A DNA stretch of 42,430 nt from a virus. The stretch covers positions 1 to 42,430 of the IMG/VR virus record IMGVR_UViG_3300031578_000123; one strand, given 5' to 3'. Position numbers and translations under genes: made by a program. Shown piece after piece: positions 2,793 to 41,009 of the stretch (position 1 is its first letter; each line of letters starts with the position of its first letter). The notes under the pieces were generated by a model. The model was not told where the DNA came from. It did not search any database and saw only the letters and a program-made list of their open reading frames with translations.

Positions 2793-2808
2793 ATAAAAGG
2801 AGGTATTT

Positions 2809-3210
2809 ATGAAGGTAACTAATAGGGACATTTTTGAGGGGAGAAAGGCTATTCAGGAATTACTTGGATTGAAACTACCCGTAAGGACAAGTTTGCAGGT
2901 TGCCAAACTGAGTAGGAAATTCAATGAGGTATTAAAGGATATAGATGTTGTTAGGCGAGGATTGATTGGTACCTATGGCACTGAATCTGGAAAGAGTGGT
3001 AAGGAAGTCAAGGCGGATAATGAGAATTTCCCAAAGTTTATGCAGGAATTTGATGAGTTGCTGGAAACAGAGGTTGACATTGAAGCAACCAAGGTAAAAC
3101 TTCCTGAGGTGATTAGTGCTACCTGTGATGCTTGTCATCACAATATGGATAGACCATTAGAGATAGAACCTTGGATTCTTGCAGCATTGGAGAAATTCGT
3201 GGAGGTGTAA
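2809..3210 (+). CDS. Hypothetical protein (structural module)
   Basis: 133-aa ORF with AAGGAGG RBS, co-oriented with and tightly packed among structural genes. Confidence 0.65.
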   Translation: MKVTNRDIFEGRKAIQELLGLKLPVRTSLQVAKLSRKFNEVLKDIDVVRRGLIGTYGTESGKSGKEVKADNENFPKFMQEFDELLETEVDIEATKVKLPEVISATCDACHHNMDRPLEIEPWILAALEKFVEV

Positions 3211-4876
3211 TATGAATTTGACGGAAACGAGAGCAGCCCTGATAATTGACCTGGCGGATGCGGCCTGGGATACTGGTGAGCTGGACAGAGGAGTAACAAA
3301 GGCTGTTGCTGACCTATCCAGATTCCTCCCAGATGAGGCGGTCTATGAGCATACCTTTGTCCTTGAGGTAACAGATGGACCGTGGACAAGTGCTGCTGCT
3401 CATGGAACCTATGTGGAGTTGGCCAATAAACCAATCAAATGGGATTCTGAAACAATCAAAAGTGCTGATGGTGTTACTACATATACCAAAAATACGGATT
3501 ATACCTTTGACTATATGAATGGCAAGGTGACCACTATCAGTGGTGGTTCTATGGCTGTGGGTACTGCCTATCTAGCTACATATACCAAATACAGAGAGGG
3601 CATTGATATTGGTTCCATGGATACCAACCTAATTAGGGTTAGGAGAGTGGAATATCCACTAAGCTCCGAGGCCGTGATGAAGTTTGTTCCATTCTTTATT
3701 TGGGGTAATATCCTCTATATTGCATCCGAGCAAATGGCGGACAAGAAGCATATAGCTATTTATTATGATAAGGAGTGTACCGCACCAACTGTTACTGAGG
3801 ATGGTAGCTTTGACCCTGTATTGGATGAGGTAATCCTCAAAGGTGCTGCTGCCTATGCCTTGATGTCCAAAGGTCTAAAAGCTGAACATGATGCCAAAAT
3901 TGCCATTGGTGCTGCTGATACCGCTATTGCTACCATTGATAAAGCCAATGCCGAGACAGCATTAAGTAGTGTTGCTGGTAGGATAACTGCTGCCACCACA
4001 GCATTAGAAAAGATTACCTCAGAAGCTGCTGCTATTGGAACAGCCCTAACTGGTATAGCAGCTTACCTAACCCTAGCTGATGCTGCTCTGGTCAAGGTGC
4101 CTATTGAAGTAGCAAAAGCTGGTAGTGATACTGGTGAGGATATGGAGAACATAAATAACCTACTCACCGATGCAGATACCGCTTTGGATAGTGTTGCTAC
4201 CAAGATTACTGCAATGGGAACAGCATTAGCTGAGTTAGCTGCTATGTGGACAGATGAGATAACCTTCAGAACCTATGCCAATGCTTACCTAGAATCAGGT
4301 GATGATTACATCAATAAGGTTAATGTTGGTGACAGTGTAGCTAATCTCTATGCTACCTATGCACAGGTACAAGCTACCTTGGCGAGGTTGTCCGAGAACA
4401 GAAGGGCTGGTAAACTAACCGAAGCATCTACCCAATTATCTGGTGCTTCACAGCATATTGGTGAGGCTAACTCCAGAGCTAACCTTGTCAATGGTTATAT
4501 CTCAGAAGCCAGGGAGAGGGTAAACCAAGCCAGAGCATATGTGGATGAGGCAAGTGGTTGGGTAGCTCTAGTTGATAGGCTAGTAGCAAATGCCAATACC
4601 AGATTGGGATTGATTACCAATTACATTAGTGAGGCTAATACCAATATGTCCCAGGCTGGTGGGCACATTGCCGAAGCTACTAGCAGACTAGCTTGCCAGG
4701 AGCTAATAGCTAGACAGGCTGATACATACAATGCTATTGCTACACAGCAAATGTCACTAGCAGAGAAATACCTAGCCGAAGCTGTTGAGCGTAGGAATGA
4801 GTTTTGGAGTATATTGAAGGACAAAAGTCAGATGCGTAGGGAATACAGTTTAGTATCCCAAAGACAAGCAGTATGA
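3211..4876 (+). CDS. Structural protein with long Ala-rich coiled-coil C-terminal half
   Basis: ATG at 3211 preceded by GGAGGTG (preferred over the track start 3179). About 300 aa of heptad-like, Ala/Glu-rich sequence with repeated ISEA motifs. Confidence 0.7.
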
Positions 4877-5358
4877 ACTATTTAGAGGAAACCGAAAAGG
4901 CATATTTGGCTGGTATTGTGGACACAGAATGCCATCTTGGTATTACAATCAAACACCAAAAAACACGGCGTAATCCTATATATGCTCCCACATTAAGGTT
5001 GACCATGATAGACCCTGAGGTGGTTTGGTGGGCACACGAGTTGACTGGTCTTGGTTCTGTGCATCTTTTACCACGGAAACCACCTTGTCATGATATATGG
5101 TTATGGGCAGTCACACACAGGGAGCTGGAAGAATTGCTACCTGAAATAGAGCCTTATTTACTGGTTAAAGGTGAAACAGCCAGATTGATATTAGAATTTA
5201 TGGGTAGGTTAGGTTCAACAAAGGTGAAATCTAATGAGGAGCACCAAACTAGATTGGATATGGTATTCCGAATCCGCCAATTAAATCAAGCCAATAGGTT
5301 GGACAAGCAGCAAATGAGAAGGGAGTATAGCTTGGTAGCACAAAGACAGTCAGCATGA
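4873..5358 (+). CDS. Free-standing LAGLIDADG homing endonuclease (single-motif type)
   Basis: KAYLAGIVDTECHLG motif near the N-terminus; 161 aa; ATGA overlap with the upstream stop, in a different frame. Confidence 0.85.
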   Translation: MNYLEETEKAYLAGIVDTECHLGITIKHQKTRRNPIYAPTLRLTMIDPEVVWWAHELTGLGSVHLLPRKPPCHDIWLWAVTHRELEELLPEIEPYLLVKGETARLILEFMGRLGSTKVKSNEEHQTRLDMVFRIRQLNQANRLDKQQMRREYSLVAQRQSA

Positions 5359-5426
5359 CACTGATTATATTTTGGTCGGTTATCATAATAACAGGGATTA
5401 TCCTTTATAAGAAGATTAAGGACTAA
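5355..5426 (+). CDS. Micro-ORF encoding a 23-aa single-TM peptide (MTLIIFWSVIIITGIILYKKIKD)
   Basis: ATGA-coupled to the homing endonuclease stop; hydrophobic core plus basic tail; too short to be sure. Confidence 0.3.
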   Translation: MTLIIFWSVIIITGIILYKKIKD

Positions 5427-5427
5427 T

Positions 5428-5625
5428 TTAATCCTTGACTATAAGTAGATTACCATTGTCCATTGTAACCAAGTGACAATTTACCTTCCCATGTAGTGTT
5501 GTAACAACCAAGGTACCATGTAGCGCAAATATATCTATGCTCAATACTATGGATGGGTCAATGCCAAGTTGTTTACAAATCTTTAGTCCTGCTTCCACAC
5601 TGTTGCCTGGTATGCTTTTACTCAT
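5428..5625 (-). CDS. Hypothetical protein (last gene of the leftward operon)
   Basis: ORF 5428..5634. The ATG at 5625 overlaps the polymerase TAA (TAATG) and follows a GGTGGGAA RBS. Confidence 0.5.
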   Translation of the reverse strand: MSKSIPGNSVEAGLKICKQLGIDPSIVLSIDIFALHGTLVVTTLHGKVNCHLVTMDNGNLLIVKD

Positions 5626-7271
5626 TATTCCCACCTTTGTAGGTACTTAACCTCAATCGGTGTTTGCAATGGAGCTATGTCATCCAGATTTGGTAACTCC
5701 ACTCTACCATCGAATATCATTTCATCATGTACCTGCATTACAATTGGTAAGTCCTTGCACCTAATCAATGCCCTTTTCAGAATTTCCGCAGCACTACCCT
5801 GAATTGGGTAATTAACAGCTTTCCTTTGTATCTTACCCTCAGACTCCTCATCTAATGTAGGTAATCTAATGCTCCTACCAAACAATGTAGTGACATAAGG
5901 ATTCCTTAGTGATTCTTCCTGCAATGTTTGGATATAATCACCAGCCTCTTTGTACTTAGCAAACCACATTTCCTTTAACTGCTTGGCTCTGGACAAGCTT
6001 CTAATATGAGCAGTTTCCATAATAGTTTCATCCGTAGCTCCATATATCATGGAAAAGTTGACATTCTTTGATGGTCTCCTAGGTATCCCTAAAAAATCAG
6101 CGGTTGTTTGGTGAATGTCTCCACCAGTATCATAGATATATTGCATTTCCCTATCATCAGACAGGTATGCCAGTATCCTTAATTCTATCTGGGAAAAATC
6201 ACCGTCTGTGAAAACCCCATTATCTGGTAGAAACATATTCCTGACCTCACCCTTAGGTATATTCTGCAGGTTCCTATCCGTTGAGCTAATCCTACCAGTA
6301 ATAGCATCCAAATGAAACCTCGTATGCGCCCTTTCCTCCTTAGCCCAAGGTTTGATATAAGTACCGAGTAGTTTGGACTTAGCTCTGTAATCCAAAACCA
6401 TCGATGCTAATGGGTCACTCATCTTTTCAAGTATCTCCACACTGGTGCTTAATTGCTTTTTGCCTGACCTACCACCCCTTGTAAATGGTATCCTGTTGAA
6501 AACACCATACGCTCCCCTTTTAGCTAATATGTACCCAACCTGCTGTGAGGAACCTGGATTAAATCCATCAGTATATGCCAGGTCAATGTAGTAGTTGACT
6601 TCCTTTTCCAGATTTCTCTCCAACCTAGCCCTAACATCTTGGTCTAATAGTATTCCCTTAAATGACATACCTACTAGGATTGGTATAAGCTCCATCTCGG
6701 TATTGTAATAATCCGCATTGACCTTTGGCAACAGGAAGTCATGTACTGCATGGGTAGCCACAGCATCCTGACAGCATTTCATGGCTACCGTTTCCTGTGG
6801 CAAATCCAGCATTATCTGTCCTTTGCCAAGTATTTCTGGGATTGTGTGTACCTCATAGAACCTGCCACCATTCATTCCCATATGGCTTGCTAGGTCAACC
6901 AGCTTGGATGGCCTAATGTTCAACAACTGAGCTAGGACATTGGTATCACCTATATTCCCATTATAGATTTCATATTCCCTGAGACACAGTAGGTCGAATG
7001 GTGCATTTTGGAATACCTTTTTCACACTAGGGTCTTTTAGTAAGTTCCAAGGAATATATGGTGATTGTTCGGGGAATAGTGGGAAGTAGAAAGCCATTTC
7101 TGGGTTAGGTGATATACCAACCCCAATGGCTATTCTTTCCTTGAGTGAAATGGTTTCCGTGTCCACTGCTATTACCTTAGGGTCAGTGAGGAAATCCGTG
7201 TACAAACCAGCTCTTGGTTCTACATCACCATAATAGTAGAAGTTCCGTCCAATGTCATATGCAAAATACAT
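5625..7271 (-). CDS. Family A DNA polymerase with compact 3'-5' exonuclease domain
   Basis: Exo I VIAVDTET; Exo II NAPFD; motif A DGDFSQIELRILAYLS; motif B RRPSKNVNFSMIYG; motif C VMQVHDEMIF. Confidence 0.95.
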   Translation of the reverse strand: MYFAYDIGRNFYYYGDVEPRAGLYTDFLTDPKVIAVDTETISLKERIAIGVGISPNPEMAFYFPLFPEQSPYIPWNLLKDPSVKKVFQNAPFDLLCLREYEIYNGNIGDTNVLAQLLNIRPSKLVDLASHMGMNGGRFYEVHTIPEILGKGQIMLDLPQETVAMKCCQDAVATHAVHDFLLPKVNADYYNTEMELIPILVGMSFKGILLDQDVRARLERNLEKEVNYYIDLAYTDGFNPGSSQQVGYILAKRGAYGVFNRIPFTRGGRSGKKQLSTSVEILEKMSDPLASMVLDYRAKSKLLGTYIKPWAKEERAHTRFHLDAITGRISSTDRNLQNIPKGEVRNMFLPDNGVFTDGDFSQIELRILAYLSDDREMQYIYDTGGDIHQTTADFLGIPRRPSKNVNFSMIYGATDETIMETAHIRSLSRAKQLKEMWFAKYKEAGDYIQTLQEESLRNPYVTTLFGRSIRLPTLDEESEGKIQRKAVNYPIQGSAAEILKRALIRCKDLPIVMQVHDEMIFDGRVELPNLDDIAPLQTPIEVKYLQRWE

Positions 7272-17834: not shown

Positions 17835-18254
17835 TCATTGTTCCCTCCCTTCTTTTATTACCTCAAGCATTGTGCATCGTTGGGCTACAACAGTTTTTGT
17901 GGTATTCCTAGTATCCCTACGACCATAGCCATTTCCGAAATGCCAGTGTACTTCCCCATAGGCTATTTGGTTCTTGAACCCTACCTTACATAATGCAAGA
18001 TTTGGGTAGTGTGTCAGGATTCTCTCGGCATCCTTTCTTTTAGTGAAGATGTGGAACCCACCTGGATATCTGTCTTCCCAGCCAGCCATGGGAACAGAGT
18101 CCTTATCCGCATCTGAGAACCTAGTCATTGATATAGGAATAGTTTTAGCATTATTCATTCCAGTGGTGTAGCTACCATCTATTCCTGACCATCGTAGTAA
18201 TTTATAGCCTTTGCTACCTGTGAATTTTCTGCCAAACTTTACCGCCAGGCACAT
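17835..18254 (-). CDS. Unknown-family protein, paralog A (N-terminus MCLAVKF)
   Basis: About 45% identity by eye to 18724..19089 (MCLA.K..RKF.G..G.KLL, GFHIFT.(K/R)(K/R)DA.RI..H(Y/F)PNL.LCKV.FK.Q..YGEV.W). Confidence 0.65.
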   Translation of the reverse strand: MCLAVKFGRKFTGSKGYKLLRWSGIDGSYTTGMNNAKTIPISMTRFSDADKDSVPMAGWEDRYPGGFHIFTKRKDAERILTHYPNLALCKVGFKNQIAYGEVHWHFGNGYGRRDTRNTTKTVVAQRCTMLEVIKEGREQ

Positions 18255-18265
18255 TTTATACCTCC

Positions 18266-18469
18266 CTATTGTTCATATTCTATTGTTGTTACCTTATTAA
18301 CCAGTTCCATTTCCACCCCACAATCCTCACACATGAATACATGGTTATTTGGCAAATACCAATAATCCCTAACATTGCCAGAGTATTCCGCTCCACACAC
18401 GGGACAGTGGAGTATCTTGTTGTCATATGTGAATATTTGGTCCTCCATGTTGGACTTAATTGCCCTCAT
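18266..18469 (-). CDS. Zinc-ribbon protein
   Basis: CPVCG...CEDCG in 67 aa. Confidence 0.6.
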   Translation of the reverse strand: MRAIKSNMEDQIFTYDNKILHCPVCGAEYSGNVRDYWYLPNNHVFMCEDCGVEMELVNKVTTIEYEQ

Positions 18470-18723: not shown

Positions 18724-19089
18724 CTATATTAGCTTACAGTATTTAGCCACTACCGTGGTGGTTGGGTATCCCCAAGTCCATGCCACCTCACCGTAAACCT
18801 CTTGGCCTTTGAATTGCACCTTACATAGGTGTAGGTTGGGGAAATGCTTCCATATACGCAAAGCATCCCTCTTCCTTGTGAATATATGGAACCCTGCTGG
18901 GTAATGGAATGATGGTGACATAAGATTATTACTTTCTATTCGTTCTTCACCAGCATCAGCCCAATCCTTTCCTATCTGTATCACACTAACATACAACATC
19001 CCTGTTTGGTAGGTGCCATTCTGTTTGGCTAATAGCTTCCATCCTCTGTTTCCTTTAAATTTCCTATCATACTTTATTGCTAAACACAT
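18724..19089 (-). CDS. Unknown-family protein, paralog B (N-terminus MCLAIKY)
   Basis: Paralog of 17835..18254. Confidence 0.65.
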   Translation of the reverse strand: MCLAIKYDRKFKGNRGWKLLAKQNGTYQTGMLYVSVIQIGKDWADAGEERIESNNLMSPSFHYPAGFHIFTRKRDALRIWKHFPNLHLCKVQFKGQEVYGEVAWTWGYPTTTVVAKYCKLI

Positions 19090-26021: not shown

Positions 26022-27581
26022 ATGTCAACCCAGACTGCATTATTTGAGGAGCTTATCCACGATAAGGTGAAATTCATTGAATCATTACTCCTTATCGAAA
26101 ATAAGCAATCCAGGCGTGTACCGTTCATCCTAAATCCAATCCAGCGTGATGCCCACAGGGTTGAGACTGGTAGGGATATGTGGGTCAAACCTGCACAGGT
26201 TGGATTTAGCTCTGATAGGTTAGCTACCAGACTAATAGATACCATTACTACTCCTGGCACCAACACTGTCCTAATAGCTTATGAGGAATTCATTACCCAG
26301 AGATTATTGGACAGAGCACAATTTTTCTACAATGTACTTAACTCCTTAGGCATCCCAGGGTTTCCCCAAATGAGCCACCATTCCTCATATGAAAAGACAT
26401 TCCCTGACATCCATAGCTCCATGTATATCAGTTCCGCAAGGAGTTATGTTGCTGGTAGGGCTGAGACTATCCATCACCTATTGGCGGATGAACACGCTTT
26501 TTGGGAACCAGGAGCAACTGAGAGAATCCTGGCTCCAGCCATAGACAGGGTTCCTCCAGATGGCACAATAGATATACTATCCACTCCTAATGGTCAATAC
26601 AATGATTTCCATGATATGTGTATGATGGCTAAGGAGGGTGAATCTGTATTTGCATACCATTTCTATCCTTGGTTCATGCACCCAGAATATAACTTAACCA
26701 CAGATAGTATATTACTAACCAAGGATAGTGCTCCTGGATGGGCTAGGGAGCTTAGAACATATGAGCTAAATCTTGACCCAGATGAAGATAAATTAGTTAA
26801 TAACCACAATCTAACATTTGACCAAATTCGCTGGAGGAAGTATAAAATCCAGGAAAAGAAAAGCCTGAGAAGGAGTGGCGAGCTTGTTAAACTATTCCAG
26901 CAAGAATACCCTGAGGATGATGTATCCTGTTGGCTGGCTGCTGGAGATATGTATTATGACACCGATGTGGTTAACCAGTTAGCCAAGGGATGTTACCCAG
27001 CACCTATACATGAATACAATGCTAATGTATGGTATCCTCCAGAACAAGGCAAGTGGTACCTAGTGTCCATTGACCCAGGACAGGCTAAGGTTACCCAAAC
27101 AGCTATTGTTGTCCTAAACTTCCAAGATGATAAACCTACCTATTGTGCTAGGGCAGCAGGGTTATGGGGACCAGAAACCACAGTGCACCATGCTTTGGAA
27201 CTAGCCAGATATTACAACAATGCTATGGTAACATGGGAAGCAAATTCCCATGGATTGGCAATAGCTCCATTGATAAAGGGTTGGCCGAATGTTTACTTTC
27301 GAAGGGATGTAGTTAGTGGCAGGGAATCCAGTGAATTGGGATGGTTGACCACTCCTAAGACTAAGGATTTCATGCTCCACACAACTGCAAGGATGCTAAA
27401 TACCATGACCGTGCATGATATAGATTTCCTCTCTGAATGTAGAAATATCCGTTTGGCTGGAGATAAAGCCGTATCGGTAGGTGCCGATGACATCCACGAC
27501 GCTGTTTGCATTGGGTTAGTTTGTAGAGATAGCAGACCAGTAAACCGTGGATTTGTCGGTACCTCAGGTTATAGGTGGTAA
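26022..27581 (+). CDS. terL: Terminase large subunit
   Basis: Walker A-like KPAQVGFSS, Walker B HHLLADEHAF, coupling motif LSTPNG, nuclease-domain VSIDPGQAK; 519 aa. Confidence 0.9.
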   Translation: MSTQTALFEELIHDKVKFIESLLLIENKQSRRVPFILNPIQRDAHRVETGRDMWVKPAQVGFSSDRLATRLIDTITTPGTNTVLIAYEEFITQRLLDRAQFFYNVLNSLGIPGFPQMSHHSSYEKTFPDIHSSMYISSARSYVAGRAETIHHLLADEHAFWEPGATERILAPAIDRVPPDGTIDILSTPNGQYNDFHDMCMMAKEGESVFAYHFYPWFMHPEYNLTTDSILLTKDSAPGWARELRTYELNLDPDEDKLVNNHNLTFDQIRWRKYKIQEKKSLRRSGELVKLFQQEYPEDDVSCWLAAGDMYYDTDVVNQLAKGCYPAPIHEYNANVWYPPEQGKWYLVSIDPGQAKVTQTAIVVLNFQDDKPTYCARAAGLWGPETTVHHALELARYYNNAMVTWEANSHGLAIAPLIKGWPNVYFRRDVVSGRESSELGWLTTPKTKDFMLHTTARMLNTMTVHDIDFLSECRNIRLAGDKAVSVGADDIHDAVCIGLVCRDSRPVNRGFVGTSGYRW

Positions 27582-29468: not shown

Positions 29469-29722
29469 TGTGTGATATTTGTGATGTAATGCTAAGGTAT
29501 GGGATAACTGATGTCCATTCCAGCAAGGCTATTTCCTTGTGTCTGAATTGTCCTGAACCAGTGTGCCTATTGGGAGTAGACCATAAACAGCATATGTCCC
29601 ATGGTAGGATAGCTGAGGCTTCCAGACTAGCTGGTTCTGGTCTTGGTACAGCAGGGATAGCCAAGACAATGCACAAGAGCAAAAGACAGGTATTAAGATA
29701 TTTGGAGGAAGTAAATGCCTAA
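29468..29722 (+). CDS. Cys-rich plus HTH small DNA-binding protein embedded in the head module
   Basis: CDIC...CLNCPEPVC, then GSGLGTAGIAKTMHKSKRQVLRYLEE (LuxR/sigma region-4-like HTH by eye). Confidence 0.6.
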   Translation: MCDICDVMLRYGITDVHSSKAISLCLNCPEPVCLLGVDHKQHMSHGRIAEASRLAGSGLGTAGIAKTMHKSKRQVLRYLEEVNA

Positions 29723-32700
29723 TGGTTTTGCTGAAGAACTAAGGAAATGGAATGAACAACTCCAAGGGAGTATAACTAGGCTGACATCCGTTGAATCAGA
29801 GGTTGCGGGACTGAGGAAGAAAACTGAGAAGCCATTACCTTGGTGGCAGAGATTGATATTTTGGACTCCTCCGTCCCAATGGCAAACAGTAAGTAAATTG
29901 GCAGGGGAGCAGATTCCTTCTCCAGCTACACCAGAGTTTTGGGCTAAGAGACCTATTGAGGAGAAGCTACAAGAGGAACTTGTTGCCATAGATGATTATA
30001 ACCGTGCTGCATGGTTCTCCGTACTTTATTCTGTTAGTCCAGATGACCTTAGGAAGCTAGGTATCACCAGCTTTGAGGACTGGGTTGAAAAGCATCCTCC
30101 TGAGGCTGGGACATCCACCACTGATTTAACCAGAGCAAAGGAATACATAGACACAATACTTTCTGTTGCTGAACCAACAAAACCTACCATAGCTACTGAG
30201 GAAATGATAGCCGAAGGATTCCTTACAGAACCTTTGGAAACAAGACCTAGATTCAAGGGCATCCATATAACAACTGTGGAAGAAATGACAAAGTGGCTCA
30301 GGAAGGAAGTACCTCCAGTAGAACGCCCTCCAGGATTAACAGAAGGTGGATTGTTAGGCTATCTTAAGGAGGAAAGAGGTCTCAGTGATGAGGAATTAGC
30401 CTACATAGATGAATCCGTTAGTCCTTTTATACAGATGGTTGAAGAGTATGAGGAAGGAAGGGAACAAACAGCACGGTATAAAGCTGGGTTAGAAACTCCA
30501 GAAATGCCTGAATTGTCCATTGGTCAGAAGATTAAACTGATTGCTTCCCAACCGATACTAGCCTTGATTGACACCATGCAGCCCTATTGGACATATTGGG
30601 ACTACCCTAGGTCTGCTATCCTTGCCAGACTTTCACACCGTATTGAGGAGACATTGAGTTTTCCCATTACTATGCCTGGTGCTAAACCTACACCAGAGGA
30701 GGAAGGATTACTTGATGAATTGGATACTCTATATGAGGCTAACAGGGAAGCTGGCATGGATTATTGGATGGCTCACAGCAAAGCATGGCAGGATTGGGAA
30801 CTTAACCATTGGGCAAAGATGGGCATTGAGATAATCTCTGACCCTGTGTCATATCTTGGGTTTGGTCTCTTGATGAAGGCTGGGAAGGCAACCAAAGGTA
30901 TACCCGTCATAGGTAGGATAATGGGTGGGCTAGGCTCCTTTGAGCGTGGGTTTATAGCAGTTACCGAAGCGTTACCTACATTCATTAAGTCCAAAATAAT
31001 AAAACTTCCAAAAACCACAGGACAGAGGGCTGCTTTGGCTGGTGCAGAGGTTAGTGATACCATAATATCAGTGCATGGTAAGAATGCTTCTGGTTTAGGG
31101 AAAACATTAAAGCAGATAACTCCAGATGATTTTGTTAAACTAAATGAGGAGTCAATAGCCCGTGCAGTAGCACACCCAGATGTTGTTGACCCACTTACCC
31201 AGCTTGGTTGGTCTTATATCAAAAGAACTCCAATGACCCATAATGAACTGTTGGAATGGGGAGCTAAGGTTACCTCCAAACTAGGTCCTGATGATGTCAC
31301 ACCAGGCATGGTTGACAACATAGAGAGAATCCTTGAACACGCAAAGGTTAAGGGTAGCAGGTTTCCTGTTAACAACCTTGACCTAGCTGCTAAGGAAATC
31401 CTACTAGGAACCCTGAATGTGGCTGATTCACCTAGTAACATGAAGGTCATAAAGTCCTTAATCAGGAAAGCCTATAAGACCAGCATTGATGAAGCCTTAG
31501 AAACAGCACGATTACCAATAACCCAATCCATCAAGACCGCTTCCCTAAAAGCTGAGAATATAGTTTGGTCGGAAGCCACCGAAAAACTATTCTTTAAGAG
31601 GATGCACCAAGGCTATGTTGCTGGTATAATGCACGAAGTCCTTGACCCACTAGAAACCCAAGTATGGCGTGGTTTTATAGACAAACAAATAGTTATGCCA
31701 TTTGCCAGAGCATACCTCATAACTGGTTCCTATGCTCCTTGGAACTGGTTTGAAGAAGTATTCAGGACTGTGCTTGGTAGAGGTGGAGGAGTCTATGGCA
31801 AGAACGCTCCAGCTAGATTAGAAAATCTTGCTATGGGGTTAATGCTTGATAGGGATGTTCTTAGAGGAGCAGAATTAGCCAAGATGTCATATACCAATAT
31901 ATTGAAGAAAAGGTTGCTGAAACCTGGTGCTCCCGTTGGCATGGGTGAAATATCTGAGGCTGCATTACTCAAGGAAACTGCTGAGGCTGTTGGTAAACCA
32001 GCACTAGAGAAACTATTGCTCCTTGGCTGGTTACCAGGTGGCAAAGGTAGAGCAGTCCATGAGGCAATGTATTTCCCAATCAGAGCTTCCCAGTGGGCTG
32101 GTGGTATGCAGCGGGCTGGATATGTTGCTAAGAAATTCTTTGACAACCTTGATGATATAGCACCTGATACAATGGCAGCTCTCAGAGGAGCAAAGCCTTC
32201 TAAACCACCAAGCGTTATAGGTCAACCTAGGAAAGCACAAAAGGCTTTTCTCCAACGGTGTGATGATAATGCTTTTATTGGTCCAACAAAGACCGAGAAC
32301 ACACCTAGAGAGTTTTCCATGAAGAATACCTCCTTAGCCGAGGGTTATTCTGCCAGTCTAAAGTATCCTGAGCTTGGTGACACCAGAGATTTCATCCTAA
32401 GCCATATTGAGACTGATAATTGGGATAATGTTCTTGCTGTTACTGGTGAAGCCAAGACCATGATGGCGGATAACCTAATCAATTCTCCAGAAGGTAGTAG
32501 GATATTCCTCAAGAACATTACCGATGACATACTGAAAAATGCTGAGAAGGTAACCACACCAGATGAGCTTATGGGTTATGTGGATGCTCTTAGGGAAATT
32601 ACAGGGATAAATCCTAAAACCATCCAAAAGCTATTTGTTGGTCTCCATGACAAAGCATCCAAGCTACCATCAAAAGCAGCAAGGGTAGAAATGTATAATG

Positions 32701-35396
32701 TTGGTCACCAGAGCATTGCTCCATTCCTTGACGAGGGTGAAAAGCAAGCTGGGAGGTTGTTAAACTTTATAAAGAAGAATTCAAAGGTATTGACTCCCGC
32801 ACAGGTAACAGAGCTTAACAAAACCCTTAACATATACACAGCCAGGATAGCAGCTTTGCAGGACACCAGGCGTTTAGCTATGGCTAGGAGCCAAGAACTT
32901 ATAGCTCAGGGTTTTGGTCCTGGTAGTGATAAGTTTGTGGCTGAAAGGAATGAAATTTGGATGAAGCACCTTAATGAGGTGGACCCTGAGTTATTTGCCA
33001 CACAGGAAATGCTGGCTGAGGGTATAGATACCTTAATAACACCTAGGAACATACCAAAACCCACCATAAATGCCTCAGTTAGAGGATTAACTCCAGCCGA
33101 TGTAGCTGCATTGCATTATGGCACAGGAGACCAACTAGCCTTTGGTTTAATGAATTCCGAAATGCTGATGCAAAAACCATACTACATGAAACTGACCATA
33201 GCCAGAGCTAATGCTATGGCAGCAAGAGCCAATACCACCCGTGAAGCCTTGGGATTTACCGATGATGCCATATCCCAAGTTTATGACCAGATACTTTATA
33301 GTCTGAGGTCTAGTCCAGAATTCCACAATATGCTTACCAGACCCTATGCTGAGGTGGATAACTTTGCCAGAGATTTGGAATCCATCAAATTAGCTGGTGG
33401 CACCAGTCCTGATGCCATGAAAGCAATGCAGGATTATGCTACCACATATGCTAACAACCTGAGGAAATTGGACATATACAAACCTTATGTTCCACCAGCT
33501 AAACCCCCAAAGAAACCAGCAGTCAAACTTCCTGGTGAAGGCTCCGAAGATTGGTGGCGTATTAAACAGGAAGCTATGGATAAAACAATGATTTCCTATC
33601 ACCAAGACTTCACCGACTATTCCAACATGAACGCTTTGGATGATGCTATGAGACACGTATTTCCATACTGGGTATATGAATCCCAGCGGTGGTTCTGGCT
33701 TGCTAGGAACATGGTAACCCATCCAGGAATTATGAACACTTGGGCTAAATACATGGATAACACGGACTTTGGTTACATCCATATGCCAGGTACTTCCCTA
33801 GATGCCAATGTCCTCAGAGGTACTGTTTACAAAGGTGGCATGAGTACCCTTGTCCGCAGGGACTATCCAGAATACTATGATAGGATGTTCCCTGAATTAT
33901 TTGAATCAATGGATTATGCCCAAAGACTAGGATTCTTCCCCAATATATTCTGGAGTATTCCAGTATCTATGTATGGTGGCAGACAACCACAGTTTGGACA
34001 GTTACTTCCTGCTGTGGCTAGAACTCCATTGGACTTATATGTTGCCTCCAACCCTGATTCCGAATCTGCTAGAGCATTGCAGGATATACTATTCCCTGAT
34101 TACTTTAGGCAGTATCTCCAAATAACCCAAGCCTCCCATATGGCTAGTGTTGGACAAATCCAAAGAGGCATTAACGGTGTGTATATCTGGGAAAAGATGC
34201 AGCGTAGTGAGGAACTTACCTTAGAAGAACAGGAACTATGGGATGCTGCTAGAGGTAAAGTAGCTTCCTATGCTCCACTAATGGAACACGGTGGCATATA
34301 CCGCCTAAGACATGAGGACAGAATAGCAGCCTATGATTGGTGGGGTAAATTCATTGAGGAGAAAACCGGTGTGTCTGTGGAAATGCAAGATGACCTGAGA
34401 AAGCACGGTATGTCCGTAGGTGATGTCTGTCCTGGGTTATCACAGTTGGATATGGCACAGATAGAGGAAGCATTGGAGTACAAAAGATGGATTGCACCTA
34501 GAGCAACTGCACCACTAAGACCTAGTAATGAGATTGAGGTTAACCTAATCCTATCAGAGTTTTGGGGTATGGTAAGGCAACATGGGGATACCTCAGAAAG
34601 TTCCATAAAGGAACTGGAGAGACAAGCCTTTGTTGAGAGGAGTATCTCCGCTGAGGATTATGTTACCAGGGTTGGAGATATTATGGAGGAAAATGCTAAG
34701 TATATCCACCAGCTCAGAGGTGATAAGTTTGACCACACCACAGGGGAGTGGGAAGCCAATCCTCAGAGTAAGAGTAAATTCAAGATTGTCCCTGTAACCC
34801 TTGATGAAAGGTCAGCCTTTTATACCGAAAGGGGAGTTAATCTGTCCATGTCCACCCTAGATGAAATGCTGGCTATGTGGTATGATATATCCCCGCAGGA
34901 GAAGATAGACCCTGAGACTGGTACTAGATACATGGATTGGGGAACCTACTTTGCCACTATGGATGCTATTGAGAAATTGCTTCCTACCAGCCTAAAAGCC
35001 GAATGGCAATCCTATATGTCTAGGAATAATACTCCAGGCTGGCTCATGTATAGAAATGCTACCAAGCAATATCTAGCTCCGTATTGGAATGTAACCAATG
35101 TCATTAAGGACCAATTCACCCCAGATGAACAGTCCCTAATAGATGAGTATTACATGGTTAAAGATATTGACCCAGCCAGAGCCGAGGAGATTCAGGACAT
35201 GACCAGACCCAATGGACTAAAGCTTATATCCCAATATAGGTCTGCTCTTACCAATGCCAGGAAGAAGCTAAGAATGACTGTTCCAATGGTAGATGCCCAA
35301 CTTATGTTTTGGGGTAGGACTTCTACATTTCTTACTCCAGAGGCAGAGAGGATGTATAACCAATTAGTACAGGAAGCTAAGGGGTTCCCTCAGTGA
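29715..35396 (+). CDS. Giant protein (1,893 aa) of unknown function; candidate internal virion/ejection protein
   Basis: Uninterrupted 5.7-kb ORF between portal and scaffold; no catalytic motif recognised by eye. Confidence 0.8.
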   Translation: MPNGFAEELRKWNEQLQGSITRLTSVESEVAGLRKKTEKPLPWWQRLIFWTPPSQWQTVSKLAGEQIPSPATPEFWAKRPIEEKLQEELVAIDDYNRAAWFSVLYSVSPDDLRKLGITSFEDWVEKHPPEAGTSTTDLTRAKEYIDTILSVAEPTKPTIATEEMIAEGFLTEPLETRPRFKGIHITTVEEMTKWLRKEVPPVERPPGLTEGGLLGYLKEERGLSDEELAYIDESVSPFIQMVEEYEEGREQTARYKAGLETPEMPELSIGQKIKLIASQPILALIDTMQPYWTYWDYPRSAILARLSHRIEETLSFPITMPGAKPTPEEEGLLDELDTLYEANREAGMDYWMAHSKAWQDWELNHWAKMGIEIISDPVSYLGFGLLMKAGKATKGIPVIGRIMGGLGSFERGFIAVTEALPTFIKSKIIKLPKTTGQRAALAGAEVSDTIISVHGKNASGLGKTLKQITPDDFVKLNEESIARAVAHPDVVDPLTQLGWSYIKRTPMTHNELLEWGAKVTSKLGPDDVTPGMVDNIERILEHAKVKGSRFPVNNLDLAAKEILLGTLNVADSPSNMKVIKSLIRKAYKTSIDEALETARLPITQSIKTASLKAENIVWSEATEKLFFKRMHQGYVAGIMHEVLDPLETQVWRGFIDKQIVMPFARAYLITGSYAPWNWFEEVFRTVLGRGGGVYGKNAPARLENLAMGLMLDRDVLRGAELAKMSYTNILKKRLLKPGAPVGMGEISEAALLKETAEAVGKPALEKLLLLGWLPGGKGRAVHEAMYFPIRASQWAGGMQRAGYVAKKFFDNLDDIAPDTMAALRGAKPSKPPSVIGQPRKAQKAFLQRCDDNAFIGPTKTENTPREFSMKNTSLAEGYSASLKYPELGDTRDFILSHIETDNWDNVLAVTGEAKTMMADNLINSPEGSRIFLKNITDDILKNAEKVTTPDELMGYVDALREITGINPKTIQKLFVGLHDKASKLPSKAARVEMYNVGHQSIAPFLDEGEKQAGRLLNFIKKNSKVLTPAQVTELNKTLNIYTARIAALQDTRRLAMARSQELIAQGFGPGSDKFVAERNEIWMKHLNEVDPELFATQEMLAEGIDTLITPRNIPKPTINASVRGLTPADVAALHYGTGDQLAFGLMNSEMLMQKPYYMKLTIARANAMAARANTTREALGFTDDAISQVYDQILYSLRSSPEFHNMLTRPYAEVDNFARDLESIKLAGGTSPDAMKAMQDYATTYANNLRKLDIYKPYVPPAKPPKKPAVKLPGEGSEDWWRIKQEAMDKTMISYHQDFTDYSNMNALDDAMRHVFPYWVYESQRWFWLARNMVTHPGIMNTWAKYMDNTDFGYIHMPGTSLDANVLRGTVYKGGMSTLVRRDYPEYYDRMFPELFESMDYAQRLGFFPNIFWSIPVSMYGGRQPQFGQLLPAVARTPLDLYVASNPDSESARALQDILFPDYFRQYLQITQASHMASVGQIQRGINGVYIWEKMQRSEELTLEEQELWDAARGKVASYAPLMEHGGIYRLRHEDRIAAYDWWGKFIEEKTGVSVEMQDDLRKHGMSVGDVCPGLSQLDMAQIEEALEYKRWIAPRATAPLRPSNEIEVNLILSEFWGMVRQHGDTSESSIKELERQAFVERSISAEDYVTRVGDIMEENAKYIHQLRGDKFDHTTGEWEANPQSKSKFKIVPVTLDERSAFYTERGVNLSMSTLDEMLAMWYDISPQEKIDPETGTRYMDWGTYFATMDAIEKLLPTSLKAEWQSYMSRNNTPGWLMYRNATKQYLAPYWNVTNVIKDQFTPDEQSLIDEYYMVKDIDPARAEEIQDMTRPNGLKLISQYRSALTNARKKLRMTVPMVDAQLMFWGRTSTFLTPEAERMYNQLVQEAKGFPQ

Positions 35397-36058: not shown

Positions 36059-37072
36059 ATGGGAGCTGTTGTTGGACACTGGAAAAATTTAACCGAAGCT
36101 CAAAGATTGACTGAATCCCAGTTGCTTCCTGGTGTTGTTGAGGAAATCATCAAGCGGGAAAACTTGCTGGAGCGTGTTCCTGTGGCTCTTGCTCAGGGAA
36201 AGTCCATAAAGTGGAACCGAGAAAAGGTAACCTTGGAGGCTGATGTCCAGAATCTGGATATTGGTCAACAGATGTCCTGGGTTTCCAGTATGGAATATGA
36301 CCCTCAGGAGACCACTTTGGTGAGGAAAGGTATGCAGAGACTCTTGGATAACTTCATAGTTGATGTCTATGGAACCGTCCAGAACTACGAGGCTCAGGCT
36401 TTGCTTGAAATCAAGAAAGGTGTTACCTTAGCATTGGGTGATAACCTAATCTATGATGACCCTGCTGCTGATGCCAAGCAGTTTGTTGGTCTGCATGACC
36501 TGGCCTATCTCCAGACTGGAACTGACTTGGATATTGACATGGCTGGTGCTCTGGAGCTTAATAGGCTAAGGATGCAGATTGATGCCATGAAGCATGGTGT
36601 GGACATTATCTATATGCCTATGGTCATTGCCCGAAGGATGGATGCAGCCTACCAAGAGAGAGGCTTTGCAAGTCTAGGTACTGCCTCTAGCTCTTTTGCC
36701 ATGATTAGTTATGGACTTAACGAAATGGGCAAGAGGATAATGTTCTTTGATGGGATTCCTATTATAAGGACTGATTTCCTGGTGAAGGAAGATGATGGTA
36801 GTAATGCCCCTAGAACCAAGAACACGGCGGGTGCTGCATACTCAATCTTTATGATAAAGTTTGGTGATGTGTTTGCAGGTAATCCTGGTCTCTGTATGGG
36901 ATTTGGAGACCCTGAGATGGGGAGCCAGCTTTACAGGATTGAGTTGTTTGACAAGCTGGAGAACTATGATGCCAAAGGGATTAGATTAGTCTCATATGTA
37001 GCACCGTTGCTAGGTAGTAAACTTTGTTTAGGCAGGATTTACGATGTAACGGATGCTCCGATTGCTGCCTAG
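36059..37072 (+). CDS. Major capsid protein (HK97-fold type, by position and pattern)
   Basis: 337 aa after the scaffold gene; AAGGAGGAATAAATT RBS; sequence pattern resembles HK97-like capsid proteins (unverified). Confidence 0.75.
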   Translation: MGAVVGHWKNLTEAQRLTESQLLPGVVEEIIKRENLLERVPVALAQGKSIKWNREKVTLEADVQNLDIGQQMSWVSSMEYDPQETTLVRKGMQRLLDNFIVDVYGTVQNYEAQALLEIKKGVTLALGDNLIYDDPAADAKQFVGLHDLAYLQTGTDLDIDMAGALELNRLRMQIDAMKHGVDIIYMPMVIARRMDAAYQERGFASLGTASSSFAMISYGLNEMGKRIMFFDGIPIIRTDFLVKEDDGSNAPRTKNTAGAAYSIFMIKFGDVFAGNPGLCMGFGDPEMGSQLYRIELFDKLENYDAKGIRLVSYVAPLLGSKLCLGRIYDVTDAPIAA

Positions 37073-40315: not shown

Positions 40316-40531
40316 ATGCCGTTACCAGTACAATCGTTAAATCCAAATTCCAGCCCTGATGATATTAAAAGAGCCATTGCTAGGAGCATTGAGCAATGTG
40401 AGGAGGAAGGTAAGTCGAAAGACCAGTGTATCGCCATTGCTTATAGGTATGCGGAGAAAGCTACTGGCAAAGCTACCTCATCTTTGGCTTCTCCAGGGAT
40501 GGAATACGGTGAACCTAGTAATATAGCTTAG
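40316..40531 (+). CDS. Hypothetical protein
   Basis: 71-aa ORF with AAGGAGGATATT RBS. Confidence 0.6.
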   Translation: MPLPVQSLNPNSSPDDIKRAIARSIEQCEEEGKSKDQCIAIAYRYAEKATGKATSSLASPGMEYGEPSNIA

Positions 40532-40538
40532 AGGTAAC

Positions 40539-41009
40539 ATGAGGACAATTACCAAAACGGACAAAGCCTATGCAGCAGGTATCCTGGATGGAGAAGGCAA
40601 TACTGGTATTTATAAGATGGTTAGAAACACTAAATATAGCAATCATCCTATATATAGGTTAATTGTTGGTATATCTAATACAAATAAAGAAGTAATACAA
40701 TGGTTAACTGAGACATTTGATTGCTGTCATCCAACGCTTAGGTATCCAAAGACGGTTGATGGGAATAAACCTATATATATGGTTAGATTTCAGGACTTAA
40801 ATGCTATTGCATTTTTGGATATAGTTAAGGATTATGTAATAATAAAGAGGTTGCAGGTGGCATTAGCATTGGGTTTTGGTGAATTTCAAAGTGAGCACAA
40901 TTATAAGGGTAATAACAAAGTTCCAGAATGGGTCATGTGCAGACGGGAGGGTTTTTATCAATCATCCAGATTCTTTAATCAGGTAGGAGTGAACCATGAG
41001 AGTGATTAG
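40539..41009 (+). CDS. Free-standing LAGLIDADG homing endonuclease (second copy, diverged paralog)
   Basis: KAYAAGILDGEGNTG motif; 156 aa; AT-rich relative to its neighbours; overlaps the downstream start by 14 nt. Confidence 0.85.
   Translation: MRTITKTDKAYAAGILDGEGNTGIYKMVRNTKYSNHPIYRLIVGISNTNKEVIQWLTETFDCCHPTLRYPKTVDGNKPIYMVRFQDLNAIAFLDIVKDYVIIKRLQVALALGFGEFQSEHNYKGNNKVPEWVMCRREGFYQSSRFFNQVGVNHESD

What the first reader, a model, noticed from the sequence alone, without database searches (positions are those of the whole stretch)
4820..5358. The homing endonuclease carries a diverged duplicate of the C-terminus of the structural gene it sits behind
The last 18 codons of structural gene 3211..4876 (4820-4876) encode DKSQMRREYSLVSQRQAV-stop. 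The last 18 codons of LAGLIDADG gene 4873..5358 (5302-5358) encode DKQQMRREYSLVAQRQSA-stop.

Of the 14 identical residues, 8 use different synonymous codons (for example cgt/aga, tta/ttg, tac/tat), so the two copies are protein-conserved but nucleotide-diverged. The endonuclease starts by ATGA overlap in another frame.

The simplest reading is that the endonuclease gene inserted inside the 3' end of the structural gene. It would have brought a replacement 3' end from a diverged donor allele (copy 1, probably cleavage-resistant). The resident 3' end (copy 2) would remain fused in frame to the endonuclease ORF. That would pinpoint the homing site and be a rare visible footprint of intron-less homing. 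Alternatively, the shared tail is a functional peptide used by both proteins.
Basis: partly seen in the sequence, partly recalled or inferred. Interest (0 to 1): 0.65.

Follow-up and report, generated by a model that had tools for sequence, protein, structure and literature searches.

The report
Homing endonuclease carrying a spare gene end
A selfish endonuclease gene has inserted 19 codons before the end of a phage tail-type gene, bringing a diverged substitute gene end with it and leaving the original end fused to its own reading frame; this layout was known from yeast and fungal mitochondria and turns up several times in this phage group.

Summary
Gene 3212..4876 ends DKSQMRREYSLVSQRQAV* (copy 1). 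The I-CreI-like LAGLIDADG ORF 4873..5358 ends DKQQMRREYSLVAQRQSA* (copy 2). They share 14/18 residues, 8 with different codons, and 41/57 nt.

- The closest endonuclease-free relatives (78-82% identical proteins) end with exactly the copy-2 peptide. They are 88-93% nt-identical to copy 2 but only 68-74% to copy 1.
- In an endonuclease-free relative, copy 2 and the small membrane ORF after it are contiguous with the gene.
- Copy 1 lies in the most aberrant 66 nt of the whole gene (13/55 versus 87/1145 window-unique changes).
- None of the 154 related endonucleases inspected has the tail. The family normally ends "LNxRG", which is where the junction lies (5300|5301).
- No intron or intein is present.

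I found the same layout twice more in relative L004, in the DNA polymerase gene and in a 64-aa gene. A mirror-image 5' version sits at the window's second LAGLIDADG gene (40539..41009).

It works like yeast WHO elements and the fungal mitochondrial cases. Cleavage, resistance of copy 1 and ongoing mobility are inferred, not shown.

The parts
3212..4876 (+). Host gene: 554-aa virion or tail-type protein. It has an N-terminal alpha/beta domain and a long coiled coil, and it is the last gene of the structural block. Its C-terminal motif RRNEFWSILxDKxQxRxExSLVSQRQPA is conserved across the family.
   Evidence: ORF and ribosome-binding site. Best PHROG hit is phrog_788, 'tail protein', E 8e-7. 87 homologues share the conserved tail. 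The AF2 model has mean pLDDT 80. Its weak fold matches are to chains 7wmp_m and 9nwi_A of two solved phage-tail structures (KHP30, Pa223), TM 0.41. One homologue has a weak Pfam SU10_adaptor hit.
4811..4876 (+). Diverged replacement 3' end, i.e. copy 1 (4820-4876) plus about 8 nt upstream. It supplies the functional C-terminus and the stop codon of the host gene. It is the inferred donor-derived, cleavage-resistant allele.
   Evidence: 13 of 55 sites differ uniquely from three relatives, against 87/1145 in the rest of the gene. Fisher p = 3e-4, and it is the densest 66-nt stretch of the gene. Alignment. Identity to relatives' tails is 39-42/57.
4873..5358 (+). LAGLIDADG homing endonuclease ORF of 161 aa, single-motif and I-CreI-like. 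The native part is aa 1-143 (4873-5301). Aa 144-161 are the displaced host tail.
   Evidence: Best PHROG hit phrog_5046, E 1.5e-17. 2200 homologues. I-MsoI and I-CreI by sequence. AF2 pLDDT 93.4 and Foldseek TM 0.71-0.77 to I-CreI. Motif YLAGIVDTEC, with the family's invariant Asp and the near-invariant Glu present. No Pfam hit for this protein itself at E <= 0.1.
5300..5301 (+). Right junction of the insert. Homology to endonuclease-free alleles resumes at G5301. It falls within a few residues of where single-motif relatives normally end, and no endonuclease stop codon remains here.
   Evidence: blastn: window 5301-5424 matches L004 7608-7731 at 85.5%. Family alignment A2 places QLNQANRL on the terminal LNxRG motif.
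5302..5358 (+). Copy 2: the displaced resident-type 3' end of the host gene, read in frame as the last 18 codons and stop of the endonuclease ORF.
   Evidence: 50/57, 52/57 and 53/57 nt identical to the tails of L004, L001 and L013. 18/18 aa identical to L004 and L001. Among 88 sequences scanned (87 loci plus the window), only this phage has a second tail copy.
5355..5426 (+). Small hydrophobic ORF (23 aa, MTLIIFWSVIIITGIILYKKIKD). Its start overlaps the stop of copy 2 (ATGA). In endonuclease-free relatives the same ORF overlaps the stop of the host gene. It belongs to the inferred downstream homology arm.
   Evidence: Conserved in L004 with mostly synonymous or conservative changes. An analogous ORF is present in L072, L063 and L057.

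Best explanation
Window 4811-5300 is a homing-endonuclease cassette that sits inside the 3' end of a conserved virion gene without using an intron or an intein.

The cassette has two parts:
(a) a diverged substitute for the last 19 or so codons of the host gene (copy 1), whose TGA stop is formed by the endonuclease's own ATGA start;
(b) a complete I-CreI-type LAGLIDADG gene that has no stop codon of its own.

The resident 3' end (copy 2) was pushed downstream. By chance of frame it is read as an 18-residue extension of the endonuclease. It also supplies the stop codon and keeps the ATGA coupling to the next small ORF.

Inferred mechanism: in a mixed infection the enzyme cuts endonuclease-free alleles at a site spanning ...ATCCTCAA|GGACAAGCA... 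(codons I-L-K|D-K-Q). The break is repaired from the occupied genome. The gene body serves as the left homology arm, and copy 2 plus the downstream ORF as the right arm. The recipient acquires copy 1 and the endonuclease and keeps a displaced tail.

Shown here: the anatomy, the insertion relative to empty alleles, the abnormal divergence of copy 1, and the endonuclease fold.

Inferred: enzyme activity, cut site, resistance of copy 1, donor origin, and repeated homing.
For: - Empty alleles exist, and they end with copy-2-type sequence that is contiguous with the downstream ORF.
- Copy 1 is the outlier: 24% window-unique differences against 7.6% in the rest of the gene. The break point is at about 4811-4813.
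- Copy 2 has only about 1 unique difference in 47 conserved sites (my count from the sequences).
- The host tail contains family-invariant residues (D537, R542, R551, Q552). An insertion here therefore has to restore it.
- The endonuclease is full length from the family-typical start MNxLxExEKAYLAG to the family end motif LNxRG, and its model is a confident I-CreI fold.
- There is no ribozyme.
- 34 distinct related loci have at least 500 nt downstream of the gene. Only this phage has a LAGLIDADG ORF abutting the host gene's stop. L004 has two elsewhere in the 1.5 kb scanned, and L013 gives a weak hit.
- Independent parallels exist:
  - In L004 the DNA polymerase gene has a diverged, 3-codon-longer 3' end, then an unrelated LAGLIDADG gene (24% identity), then a relic of the resident polymerase end. 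The relic matches orthologues at 80/93 and 77/93 nt, against 64-67/102 for the functional end.
  - In L004 a 64-aa gene is followed by a third LAGLIDADG gene, which runs into a relic GRNRSVKKAHRR* matching the tails in L001 and L013.
  - The window's second LAGLIDADG ORF (40539..41009) starts with the conserved start of the downstream gene family (MRTI). That gene itself has an atypical start, MRVI.
- The same organisation and logic are established experimentally for yeast WHO elements.
Against: - No cleavage data exist.
- The endonuclease is known from one phage lineage only. No relative lies between 34% and 100% identity in the 5.8-billion-protein word-index search, and none shares 50% identity in the exhaustive search. 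No donor lineage and no second host background are available.
- The empty alleles are from phages only 78-82% identical, not from the same population. Contigs of four runs showed no endonuclease-free variant.
- Copy 1 matches no sampled lineage better than 42/57.
- Two near-invariant glycines of the motif are replaced (G18T, G20C), so the enzyme could be impaired.
- The left boundary is statistical and rests on three close relatives.
- A single illegitimate event would leave the same anatomy as repeated homing.
Confidence: 0.78

Rival explanations
1. In-place duplication followed by divergence. The insertion event duplicated the resident 57 nt. Copy 1 then diverged in situ, for example under selection to escape self-cleavage or to prevent deletion by recombination between the direct repeats. 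No donor allele was involved.
For: No donor lineage with a copy-1-like tail was found. Copy 1 still shares the clade-specific MRREY with copy 2.
Against: Copy 1 would have had to evolve about three times faster than the rest of the gene, and far faster than copy 2, while staying under protein constraint. The changes include many synonymous ones and one three-base codon change (CAG to AGT), and they spread over more than 60 nt, wider than a 20-22 bp target. The L004 polymerase case has a replacement end with a 3-codon length difference, which is hard to obtain by point divergence.
Confidence: 0.1
2. A one-off illegitimate recombination between two related phages. One had a free-standing endonuclease gene just after the stop codon. 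The displaced tail is an accident of repair, and the element is not mobile as a unit.
For: Only one lineage carries it. The region between the structural and replication modules is highly variable among relatives.
Against: The same layout occurs at three other sites with unrelated LAGLIDADG genes, always with the endonuclease ORF ending at or within 5 nt of the junction. That argues for a regular mechanism rather than an accident.
Confidence: 0.1
3. Copy 1 is the native end of this phage's gene. The endonuclease came in together with copy 2 and the downstream ORF from an L004-like donor, and it was inserted exactly at the stop codon.
For: Copy 2 and its flank are as similar to L004 (85.5%) as the gene body is (81%). 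On identity alone its origin cannot be assigned.
Against: The gene's last 66 nt are an outlier relative to the rest of the same gene, although this is normally one of its most conserved parts. A native end should not be.
Confidence: 0.07
4. The shared tail is a functional peptide module that both proteins need.
For: The tail is strongly conserved in the host protein family. In the AF2 model it extends the endonuclease's last helix with pLDDT 81-88. I-CreI needs its own C-terminal region for DNA binding (title of PDB entry 2o7m). Copy 2 shows no amino-acid change relative to L004 and L001.
Against: None of the 154 related endonucleases inspected has it, and the family ends at the junction. Copy 2 is collinear at the nucleotide level with empty alleles, including the non-homologous downstream ORF. 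In the two L004 cases the relic is not translated with the endonuclease.
Confidence: 0.04
5. The endonuclease is ancestral to the clade, and relatives lost it by recombination between the two copies.
For: Direct repeats flanking an insert can mediate precise loss.
Against: The relatives' tails are copy-2-like along their whole length, not chimeric. 33 other distinct loci across the family lack a LAGLIDADG ORF at this position. Several identical losses would be required.
Confidence: 0.03

Closest known systems
WHO elements of Torulaspora and Lachancea yeasts, which home into FBA1 (PMC7282813; bioRxiv 10.64898/2026.08.13.744650)
   Same: The organisation is identical: a full-length host gene whose 3' end is an allelic, resistant replacement, then the endonuclease gene, then a fragment made of the previous 3' end that serves as downstream homology. 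There is no intron and no intein.
   Different: WHO proteins are HO/VDE-like, with a zinc finger. This enzyme is a 143-aa I-CreI-type monomer. WHO replaces about a third of FBA1 (cleavage at about nt 668), whereas here only 19 codons are replaced. In WHO the relic is not fused to the endonuclease ORF. WHO acts in nuclear meiosis, this element in phage mixed infection. Cleavage and resistance were demonstrated for WHO and were not tested here.
Fungal mitochondrial endonuclease-gene insertions with a foreign or duplicated C-terminus: Allomyces macrogynus atp6, Ophiostoma rps3, Phlebia radiata atp6 and cox2 (as described in PMC4019555 and PMC12308204)
   Same: A LAGLIDADG or GIY-YIG gene is inserted in the 3' end of an essential gene. 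A substitute C-terminal coding piece comes with it, and the original end is displaced downstream.
   Different: [quoted passage not shown] Here it is a separate ORF that overlaps the host gene's stop (ATGA) and is fused to the displaced end instead.
Free-standing phage homing endonucleases and intronless homing (T4 Seg and Mob enzymes; review PMC2988022)
   Same: A phage-borne endonuclease gene without intron or intein. It presumably spreads by double-strand-break repair in mixed infections, with co-conversion of flanking sequence.
   Different: Those genes lie between genes. The review text has no word starting 'duplicat'. Here the insertion point is inside the coding sequence, and the gene end is duplicated and replaced.
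Endonuclease-gene islands with fragments of essential genes in ICP1-like phages (PMC10055350)
   Same: Small ORFs next to endonuclease genes are fragments of neighbouring essential genes. The authors propose that they act as recombination substrates for homing.
   Different: Different endonuclease families (T5orf172, HNH). The passages I searched describe no replacement end paired with a displaced resident end, and no in-frame fusion to the endonuclease.
I-CreI and I-MsoI homodimeric LAGLIDADG endonucleases
   Same: Fold and motif. Foldseek TM is 0.71-0.77 over 141-144 columns. phmmer to I-MsoI gives E 1.4e-4.
   Different: Those enzymes are encoded in group I introns of rRNA genes. This one is intron-less, shares only about 20% identity, and has T and C in place of the two motif glycines.

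Membership tests
LAGLIDADG homing endonuclease, single-motif (I-CreI type) | LAGLIDADG motif with the conserved acidic residues | tested here: met
   YLAGIVDTEC. D17 is invariant and E19 near-invariant in the 44-sequence alignment. G18 and G20, which are at least 90% conserved, are T and C here.
LAGLIDADG homing endonuclease, single-motif (I-CreI type) | The helix-and-strand core fold of I-CreI | tested here: met
   AF2 mean pLDDT 93.4. The top 50 Foldseek hits are all LAGLIDADG endonucleases or engineered derivatives, mostly I-CreI and I-MsoI. The best I-CreI matches have TM 0.71-0.77 and E about 5e-9.
LAGLIDADG homing endonuclease, single-motif (I-CreI type) | Match to the curated Pfam models (PF00961, PF14528) | tested here: not met
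   No Pfam family at E <= 0.1 for this protein. Its homologues P0101 and P0105 do hit PF00961, P0101 above the cut-off and P0105 below it. phmmer links the protein to 2200 relatives.
LAGLIDADG homing endonuclease, single-motif (I-CreI type) | Site-specific double-strand cleavage as a homodimer | not testable with these tools
   Needs a protein assay. A search for a pseudo-palindrome around the junction was inconclusive.
WHO-type homing element (organisation) | The endonuclease gene lies immediately downstream of an intact host gene whose 3' end differs from that of empty alleles | tested here: met
   ATGA overlap at 4873-4876. Copy 1 has 13/55 unique differences against 87/1145 in the rest of the gene.
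WHO-type homing element (organisation) | A fragment of the host gene's 3' end downstream of the endonuclease gene that matches empty alleles | tested here: met
   Copy 2 matches empty alleles at 50-53/57 nt, and the match continues into the flank.
WHO-type homing element (organisation) | Occupied and empty alleles coexist in one population | tested here: inconclusive
   Empty alleles were seen only in phages 78-82% identical. Contigs of four runs show only the occupied form.
WHO-type homing element (organisation) | The endonuclease cuts the empty allele but not the occupied one | not testable with these tools
   No assay was possible.
WHO protein family (HO/VDE-related) | Intein-derived LAGLIDADG protein with a zinc-finger domain | tested here: not met
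   The 161-aa I-CreI-type single domain leaves no room for an intein-derived region or a zinc finger. It works like a WHO element but is not a member of that protein family.
Group I or group II intron-encoded endonuclease | A ribozyme surrounding the ORF | tested here: not met
   Rfam finds no intron at E <= 10 in 4500-5700 and nothing at gathering score in the whole window. Of the 482-nt insert, all but the first 53 nt (copy 1 upstream of the ATG) is ORF.
Intein | In-frame insertion within the host protein, with splicing domains | tested here: not met
   The endonuclease is in another frame, after the host gene's stop codon.
Classical free-standing phage endonuclease gene (intergenic) | Located between intact genes with no duplication of gene ends | tested here: not met
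   Relative to empty alleles the insertion point is 19 codons before the stop codon, and 58 nt are duplicated.

The most novel reading that the evidence does not exclude
LAGLIDADG genes of this phage group form a general class of 'gene-end replacement' homing elements, the phage counterpart of the rare third category defined by yeast WHO elements. They can invade either the 3' or the 5' end of conserved genes. They carry a diverged substitute end. They dispense with their own start or stop signals by borrowing those of the displaced host end. The displaced end is an integral homology arm. In the window's case the borrowed 18-residue basic tail may even contribute to the enzyme, for example to DNA contacts.
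Probability: 0.35. Interest if true: 0.72.

Novelty: new variant of a known kind. Interest (0 to 1): 0.6.

Why it matters
It shows a third way, besides introns and inteins, for a homing endonuclease to live inside an essential phage gene without harming it: the element brings its own copy of the gene end.

- The footprint narrows the predicted recognition site to a few tens of bases around ...ATCCTCAA|GGACAAG..., which makes a direct cleavage test easy to design.
- The recurrence at four sites, with unrelated endonucleases, suggests that such cassettes are a regular source of mosaic gene ends, of small 'orphan' ORFs, and of odd C-terminal extensions in phage genomes.
- Annotation pipelines would miss these or mislabel them.
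- It extends to viruses of bacteria an organisation that was recently called rare and is otherwise described in yeasts and fungal mitochondria.

Tried and rejected
- **Cultured-phage relatives.** tblastn of the host protein against 50,697 phage records gave nothing. The endonuclease matched only Caulobacter phages, at 33% identity. There it is an ordinary gene between genes. I did not scan that locus for duplications.
- **Donor search.** No endonuclease relative lies between 34% and 100% identity. No sampled tail matches copy 1 better than 42/57.
- **Endonuclease-free variants of the same phage.** Only assembled contigs were available. All were occupied and showed no joints.
- **Intron or intein.** Excluded (and the reading frames).
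- **Pseudo-palindromic target around the junction.** The best score was 7/11 paired positions, 8-12 nt upstream. About 1% of background positions score as well, so this is inconclusive.
- **Base composition.** The endonuclease core has 41.5% G+C against a window mean of 42.7%. There is no foreign signal.
- **Promoter and terminator scan of 4500-5800.** No more hits than in shuffled sequence.
- **Chance similarity of the endonuclease start to the small downstream ORF** (MNY versus MNF in L072). Rejected, because MNxLxExEKAYLAG is the native start in this endonuclease family.
- **Generic scan for C-terminal peptides repeated downstream.** Besides the real cases it flagged a paralogue pair (18724..19089 and 17835..18254) and a repeat artefact in L086. 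Both were dismissed.
- **Identity of the host protein.** Foldseek was dominated by non-specific coiled-coil hits.
Full report
**1. The observation**

- The + strand carries a 554-codon gene (ATG 3212 to TGA 4876), preceded by GGAGGTG.
- Overlapping its stop by ATGA, and in another frame, a 161-codon ORF runs 4873..5358.
- The last 18 codons of the two ORFs encode DKSQMRREYSLVSQRQAV and DKQQMRREYSLVAQRQSA.
- 14 residues are identical, and 8 of those use different codons. Nucleotide identity is 41/57.
- BLASTP of the two proteins finds only this stretch, at E = 5e-7.
- Contigs from four runs (three of them full-length across 4300-5900) and an ENA assembly carry the arrangement, with one mismatch that lies outside the element.

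**2. The two genes**

- *The second ORF is an I-CreI-type LAGLIDADG endonuclease.*
  - Best PHROG hit is phrog_5046, E 1.5e-17.
  - An exhaustive search finds 2200 homologues.
  - phmmer links it to I-MsoI and I-CreI.
  - The AF2 model has pLDDT 93.4, and its best structural matches are I-CreI chains, TM 0.71-0.77.
  - The motif is YLAGIVDTEC. The family's conserved Asp and Glu are present. Two near-invariant glycines are replaced by T and C.
  - Pfam itself gives no hit for this protein.
- *The first gene is the last gene of the structural block.* A major head protein lies at 36059..37072, and 26022..27581 gives a weak terminase match (E 6e-4).
  - Its best PHROG hit is 'tail protein'.
  - The model is an N-terminal alpha/beta domain followed by about 340 residues of long helices.
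  - It has weak fold matches to chains of two solved phage-tail structures, and one homologue has a weak SU10_adaptor hit.
  - 'Structural' is therefore reasonable, but the exact role is open.
- *The C-terminus is conserved.* Across 87 homologues and more than 60 loci it reads RRNEFWSILxDKxQxRxExSLVSQRQPA. R528-W532, L535, D537, R542, R551 and Q552 are invariant among the 12 closest.

**3. Which copy is the resident one**

- The closest relatives of the host protein are P0002 (82% identity) and P0003 (78%). Both end ...KDKQQMRREYSLVAQRQSA, which is exactly copy 2.
- Their contigs (L004-L007, L011; L001) have no endonuclease after the gene.
- blastn aligns window 2800-4882 with L004 5588-7672 at 81%. 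Separately it aligns window 5301-5424 with L004 7608-7731 at 85.5%.
- So copy 2 and the small hydrophobic ORF that follows it (5355..5426) are contiguous with the gene body in the empty allele. About 482 nt are extra in the window.
- Copy 2 is 50, 52 and 53 of 57 nt identical to the tails of L004, L001 and L013. Copy 1 scores only 39, 42 and 40.
- I counted sites where the three relatives agree and the window differs. There are 87/1145 before position 4811 and 13/55 in 4811-4876 (Fisher p = 3e-4). This is the densest 66-nt stretch of the whole gene.
- The change begins at ATATTG (window) versus ATCCTC (relatives), at 4811-4816.
- Copy 1 keeps the clade-specific MRREY. It also has S at two positions, as more distant family members do. 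That is what an unsampled sister lineage would look like.

**4. The tail is not part of the endonuclease family**

- None of the 154 related endonucleases inspected has a similar end.
- Single-motif relatives of 135-185 aa end a few residues after a conserved 'LNxRG'.
- In the alignment this motif falls on QLNQANRL, residues 136-143. That is immediately before D144, the first residue of copy 2.
- The start MNYLEETEKAYLAG is also the family's usual start.
- The cassette therefore holds a complete endonuclease gene minus its stop codon, and the junction is at 5300|5301.
- The AF2 model simply continues the last helix through the tail, with pLDDT 81-88. No alignment depth supports that part.

**5. 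Other classes excluded**

- Rfam finds no intron in 4500-5700 even at E <= 10, and nothing at gathering score in the whole window.
- The ORF is out of frame with the host gene, so it is not an intein.
- Relative to empty alleles it is not intergenic either.

**6. The same design elsewhere in this phage group**

A generic scan for C-terminal peptides repeated downstream, plus a LAGLIDADG profile search, turned up three more cases.

- *(a) L004, minus strand: the DNA polymerase gene.*
  - The gene ends ...HDELIFDGYVSADKLEPMESIAPFPTPIDIKYLQCWE*.
  - Next comes a 40-nt spacer with a TTGACA-17-TATGAT promoter-like site.
  - Then a 147-aa LAGLIDADG gene, only 24% identical to the window's.
  - Five nt later lies (M)IFDGRVELPNLEGIAAFPTPIEVKYLQCWE*.
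  - This relic is 80/93 and 77/93 nt identical to the polymerase ends of the window and L001. The functional L004 end is 64-67/102 identical to any of them.
  - The insertion follows the polymerase's conserved QVHDE motif.
- *(b) L004, plus strand: a 64-aa basic protein gene.*
  - The gene ends ...LTPKRAIKKAHRRK*.
  - A 140-aa LAGLIDADG ORF overlaps its stop.
  - That ORF terminates at a TAG that lies out of frame inside a relic reading GRNRSVKKAHRR*. The relic matches the native ends in L001 and L013 and their downstream flank.
- *(c) The window itself: a second LAGLIDADG ORF, 40539..41009.*
  - It lies between a 71-aa gene and a 335-aa gene that abut directly in L004.
  - It starts ATGAGGACAATTA (MRTI), which is the conserved start of the 335-aa family (MR[TS]ISS in most of the roughly 25 loci recovered).
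  - The window's own 335-aa gene starts MRVISS, and its start codon lies inside the endonuclease's 3' end.
  - This looks like the mirror image, a 5'-end replacement. It rests on only about 13 nt.
- In all four cases the endonuclease ORF ends at, or within 5 nt of, the junction with resident sequence.
- In two of them the ORF runs out of frame into resident sequence and stops after a few codons. In the polymerase case it has its own stop 5 nt before the relic. In the window's first case it happens to be in the resident frame and reads all 18 codons.
- The in-frame fusion is therefore best seen as one of three frame outcomes, not as evidence for a shared functional peptide.

**7. Mechanism**

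- Shown: the anatomy, the insertion relative to empty alleles, the abnormal divergence of copy 1, and the endonuclease fold.
- Inferred: the enzyme cuts empty alleles, and repair copies copy 1 and the endonuclease gene from the occupied genome. The gene body and copy 2 with its flank act as the two homology arms.
- Resident-type sequence is retained up to about 4810 and again from 5301. Any target that is destroyed in the occupied genome must therefore include the segment ATCCTCAA (codons I-L-K) and its junction with GGACAAG. This locates the predicted homing site.
- The double ATGA arrangement suggests that the endonuclease is translated by coupling to the host gene, and that the small downstream ORF stays coupled. 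This is also inference.

**8. Comparison with what is known**

- The organisation is that of yeast WHO elements. There, cleavage of sensitive FBA1 alleles, resistance of the replaced end and the role of the downstream fragment were shown or modelled. Their authors call it a third and rarer category of homing element.
- It also matches the fungal mitochondrial cases in atp6, rps3 and cox2.
- In phages, fragments of essential genes next to endonuclease genes have been noted and proposed as recombination substrates. The T4 review text has no word starting 'duplicat'.
- The protein is not a WHO/HO relative. The element works like WHO elements without belonging to that family.
- I rate it a new variant of a known kind. 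The new aspects are the phage setting, the I-CreI-type enzyme, the very short replaced segment, the borrowed stop and start signals, and the relic fused to the endonuclease.

**9. Limits**

- There is one occupied lineage, no donor, and no same-population empty allele.
- There is no biochemistry.
- The motif substitutions might impair the enzyme.
- In-place divergence, a single illegitimate event, or import of copy 2 with the endonuclease remain possible at low probability.

Noticed in passing
window 40539-41009 (+), with 40316-40531 and 40996-42003: A second LAGLIDADG ORF (156 aa, 35.5% G+C) sits between two genes that abut directly in relative L004. It begins with the conserved start of the downstream 335-aa gene family (MRTI). 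That gene itself starts MRVI, and its start codon lies inside the endonuclease's 3' end. This looks like a mirror-image 5'-end replacement.
   Followed up: partly
L004 8741-9440 (minus strand); also in L005, L006 and L011: The DNA polymerase gene has a diverged, 3-codon-longer 3' end. It is followed by a promoter-like TTGACA-17-TATGAT, an unrelated 147-aa LAGLIDADG gene, and a relic of the resident polymerase end (IFDGRVELPNLEGIAAFPTPIEVKYLQCWE*). The window's polymerase gene (5625-7271) is uninterrupted.
   Followed up: yes
L004 7739-8385 (+): A third LAGLIDADG gene (140 aa) overlaps the stop of a 64-aa basic protein gene. It runs into a relic of that gene's resident end (GRNRSVKKAHRR*) and uses an out-of-frame TAG there as its stop. 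The window lacks this 64-aa gene.
   Followed up: partly
window 5355-5426 (+): A conserved 23-aa hydrophobic ORF (MTLIIFWSVIIITGIILYKKIKD). Its start overlaps the preceding stop codon. Equivalent small membrane-type ORFs overlap the stop of the host gene in L004, L011, L072, L063 and L057. Its function is unknown.
   Followed up: partly
window 18724-19089 and 17835-18254 (minus strand): Two paralogous genes (121 and 139 aa, both starting MCLA[IV]K...), separated by two small genes. One of these (18266-18469) has two CxxC pairs. They are not related to an endonuclease insertion.
   Followed up: no
window 29715-35396 (+): A single 1893-aa ORF lies in the structural block, between a 560-aa ORF and the head genes. 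I did not analyse it.
   Followed up: no
window 4873-5358, residues 18 and 20: The motif reads LAGIVDTEC, where at least 90% of relatives have LAGxIDGEG. By the alignments, the T aligns with I-CreI Gly19. From my own knowledge, not tested here: in engineered I-CreI the G19S change affects homodimer activity. The enzyme could be weakened, or its dimer interface may pack differently.
   Followed up: no
whole window: No tRNA genes and no Rfam family at gathering score. The host protein has no relative among 50,697 deposited phage genomes. This is a roughly 42-44 kb phage lineage known only from metagenomes (soil and sediment runs), with convergent structural and replication modules meeting at 5.4 kb.
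   Followed up: partly
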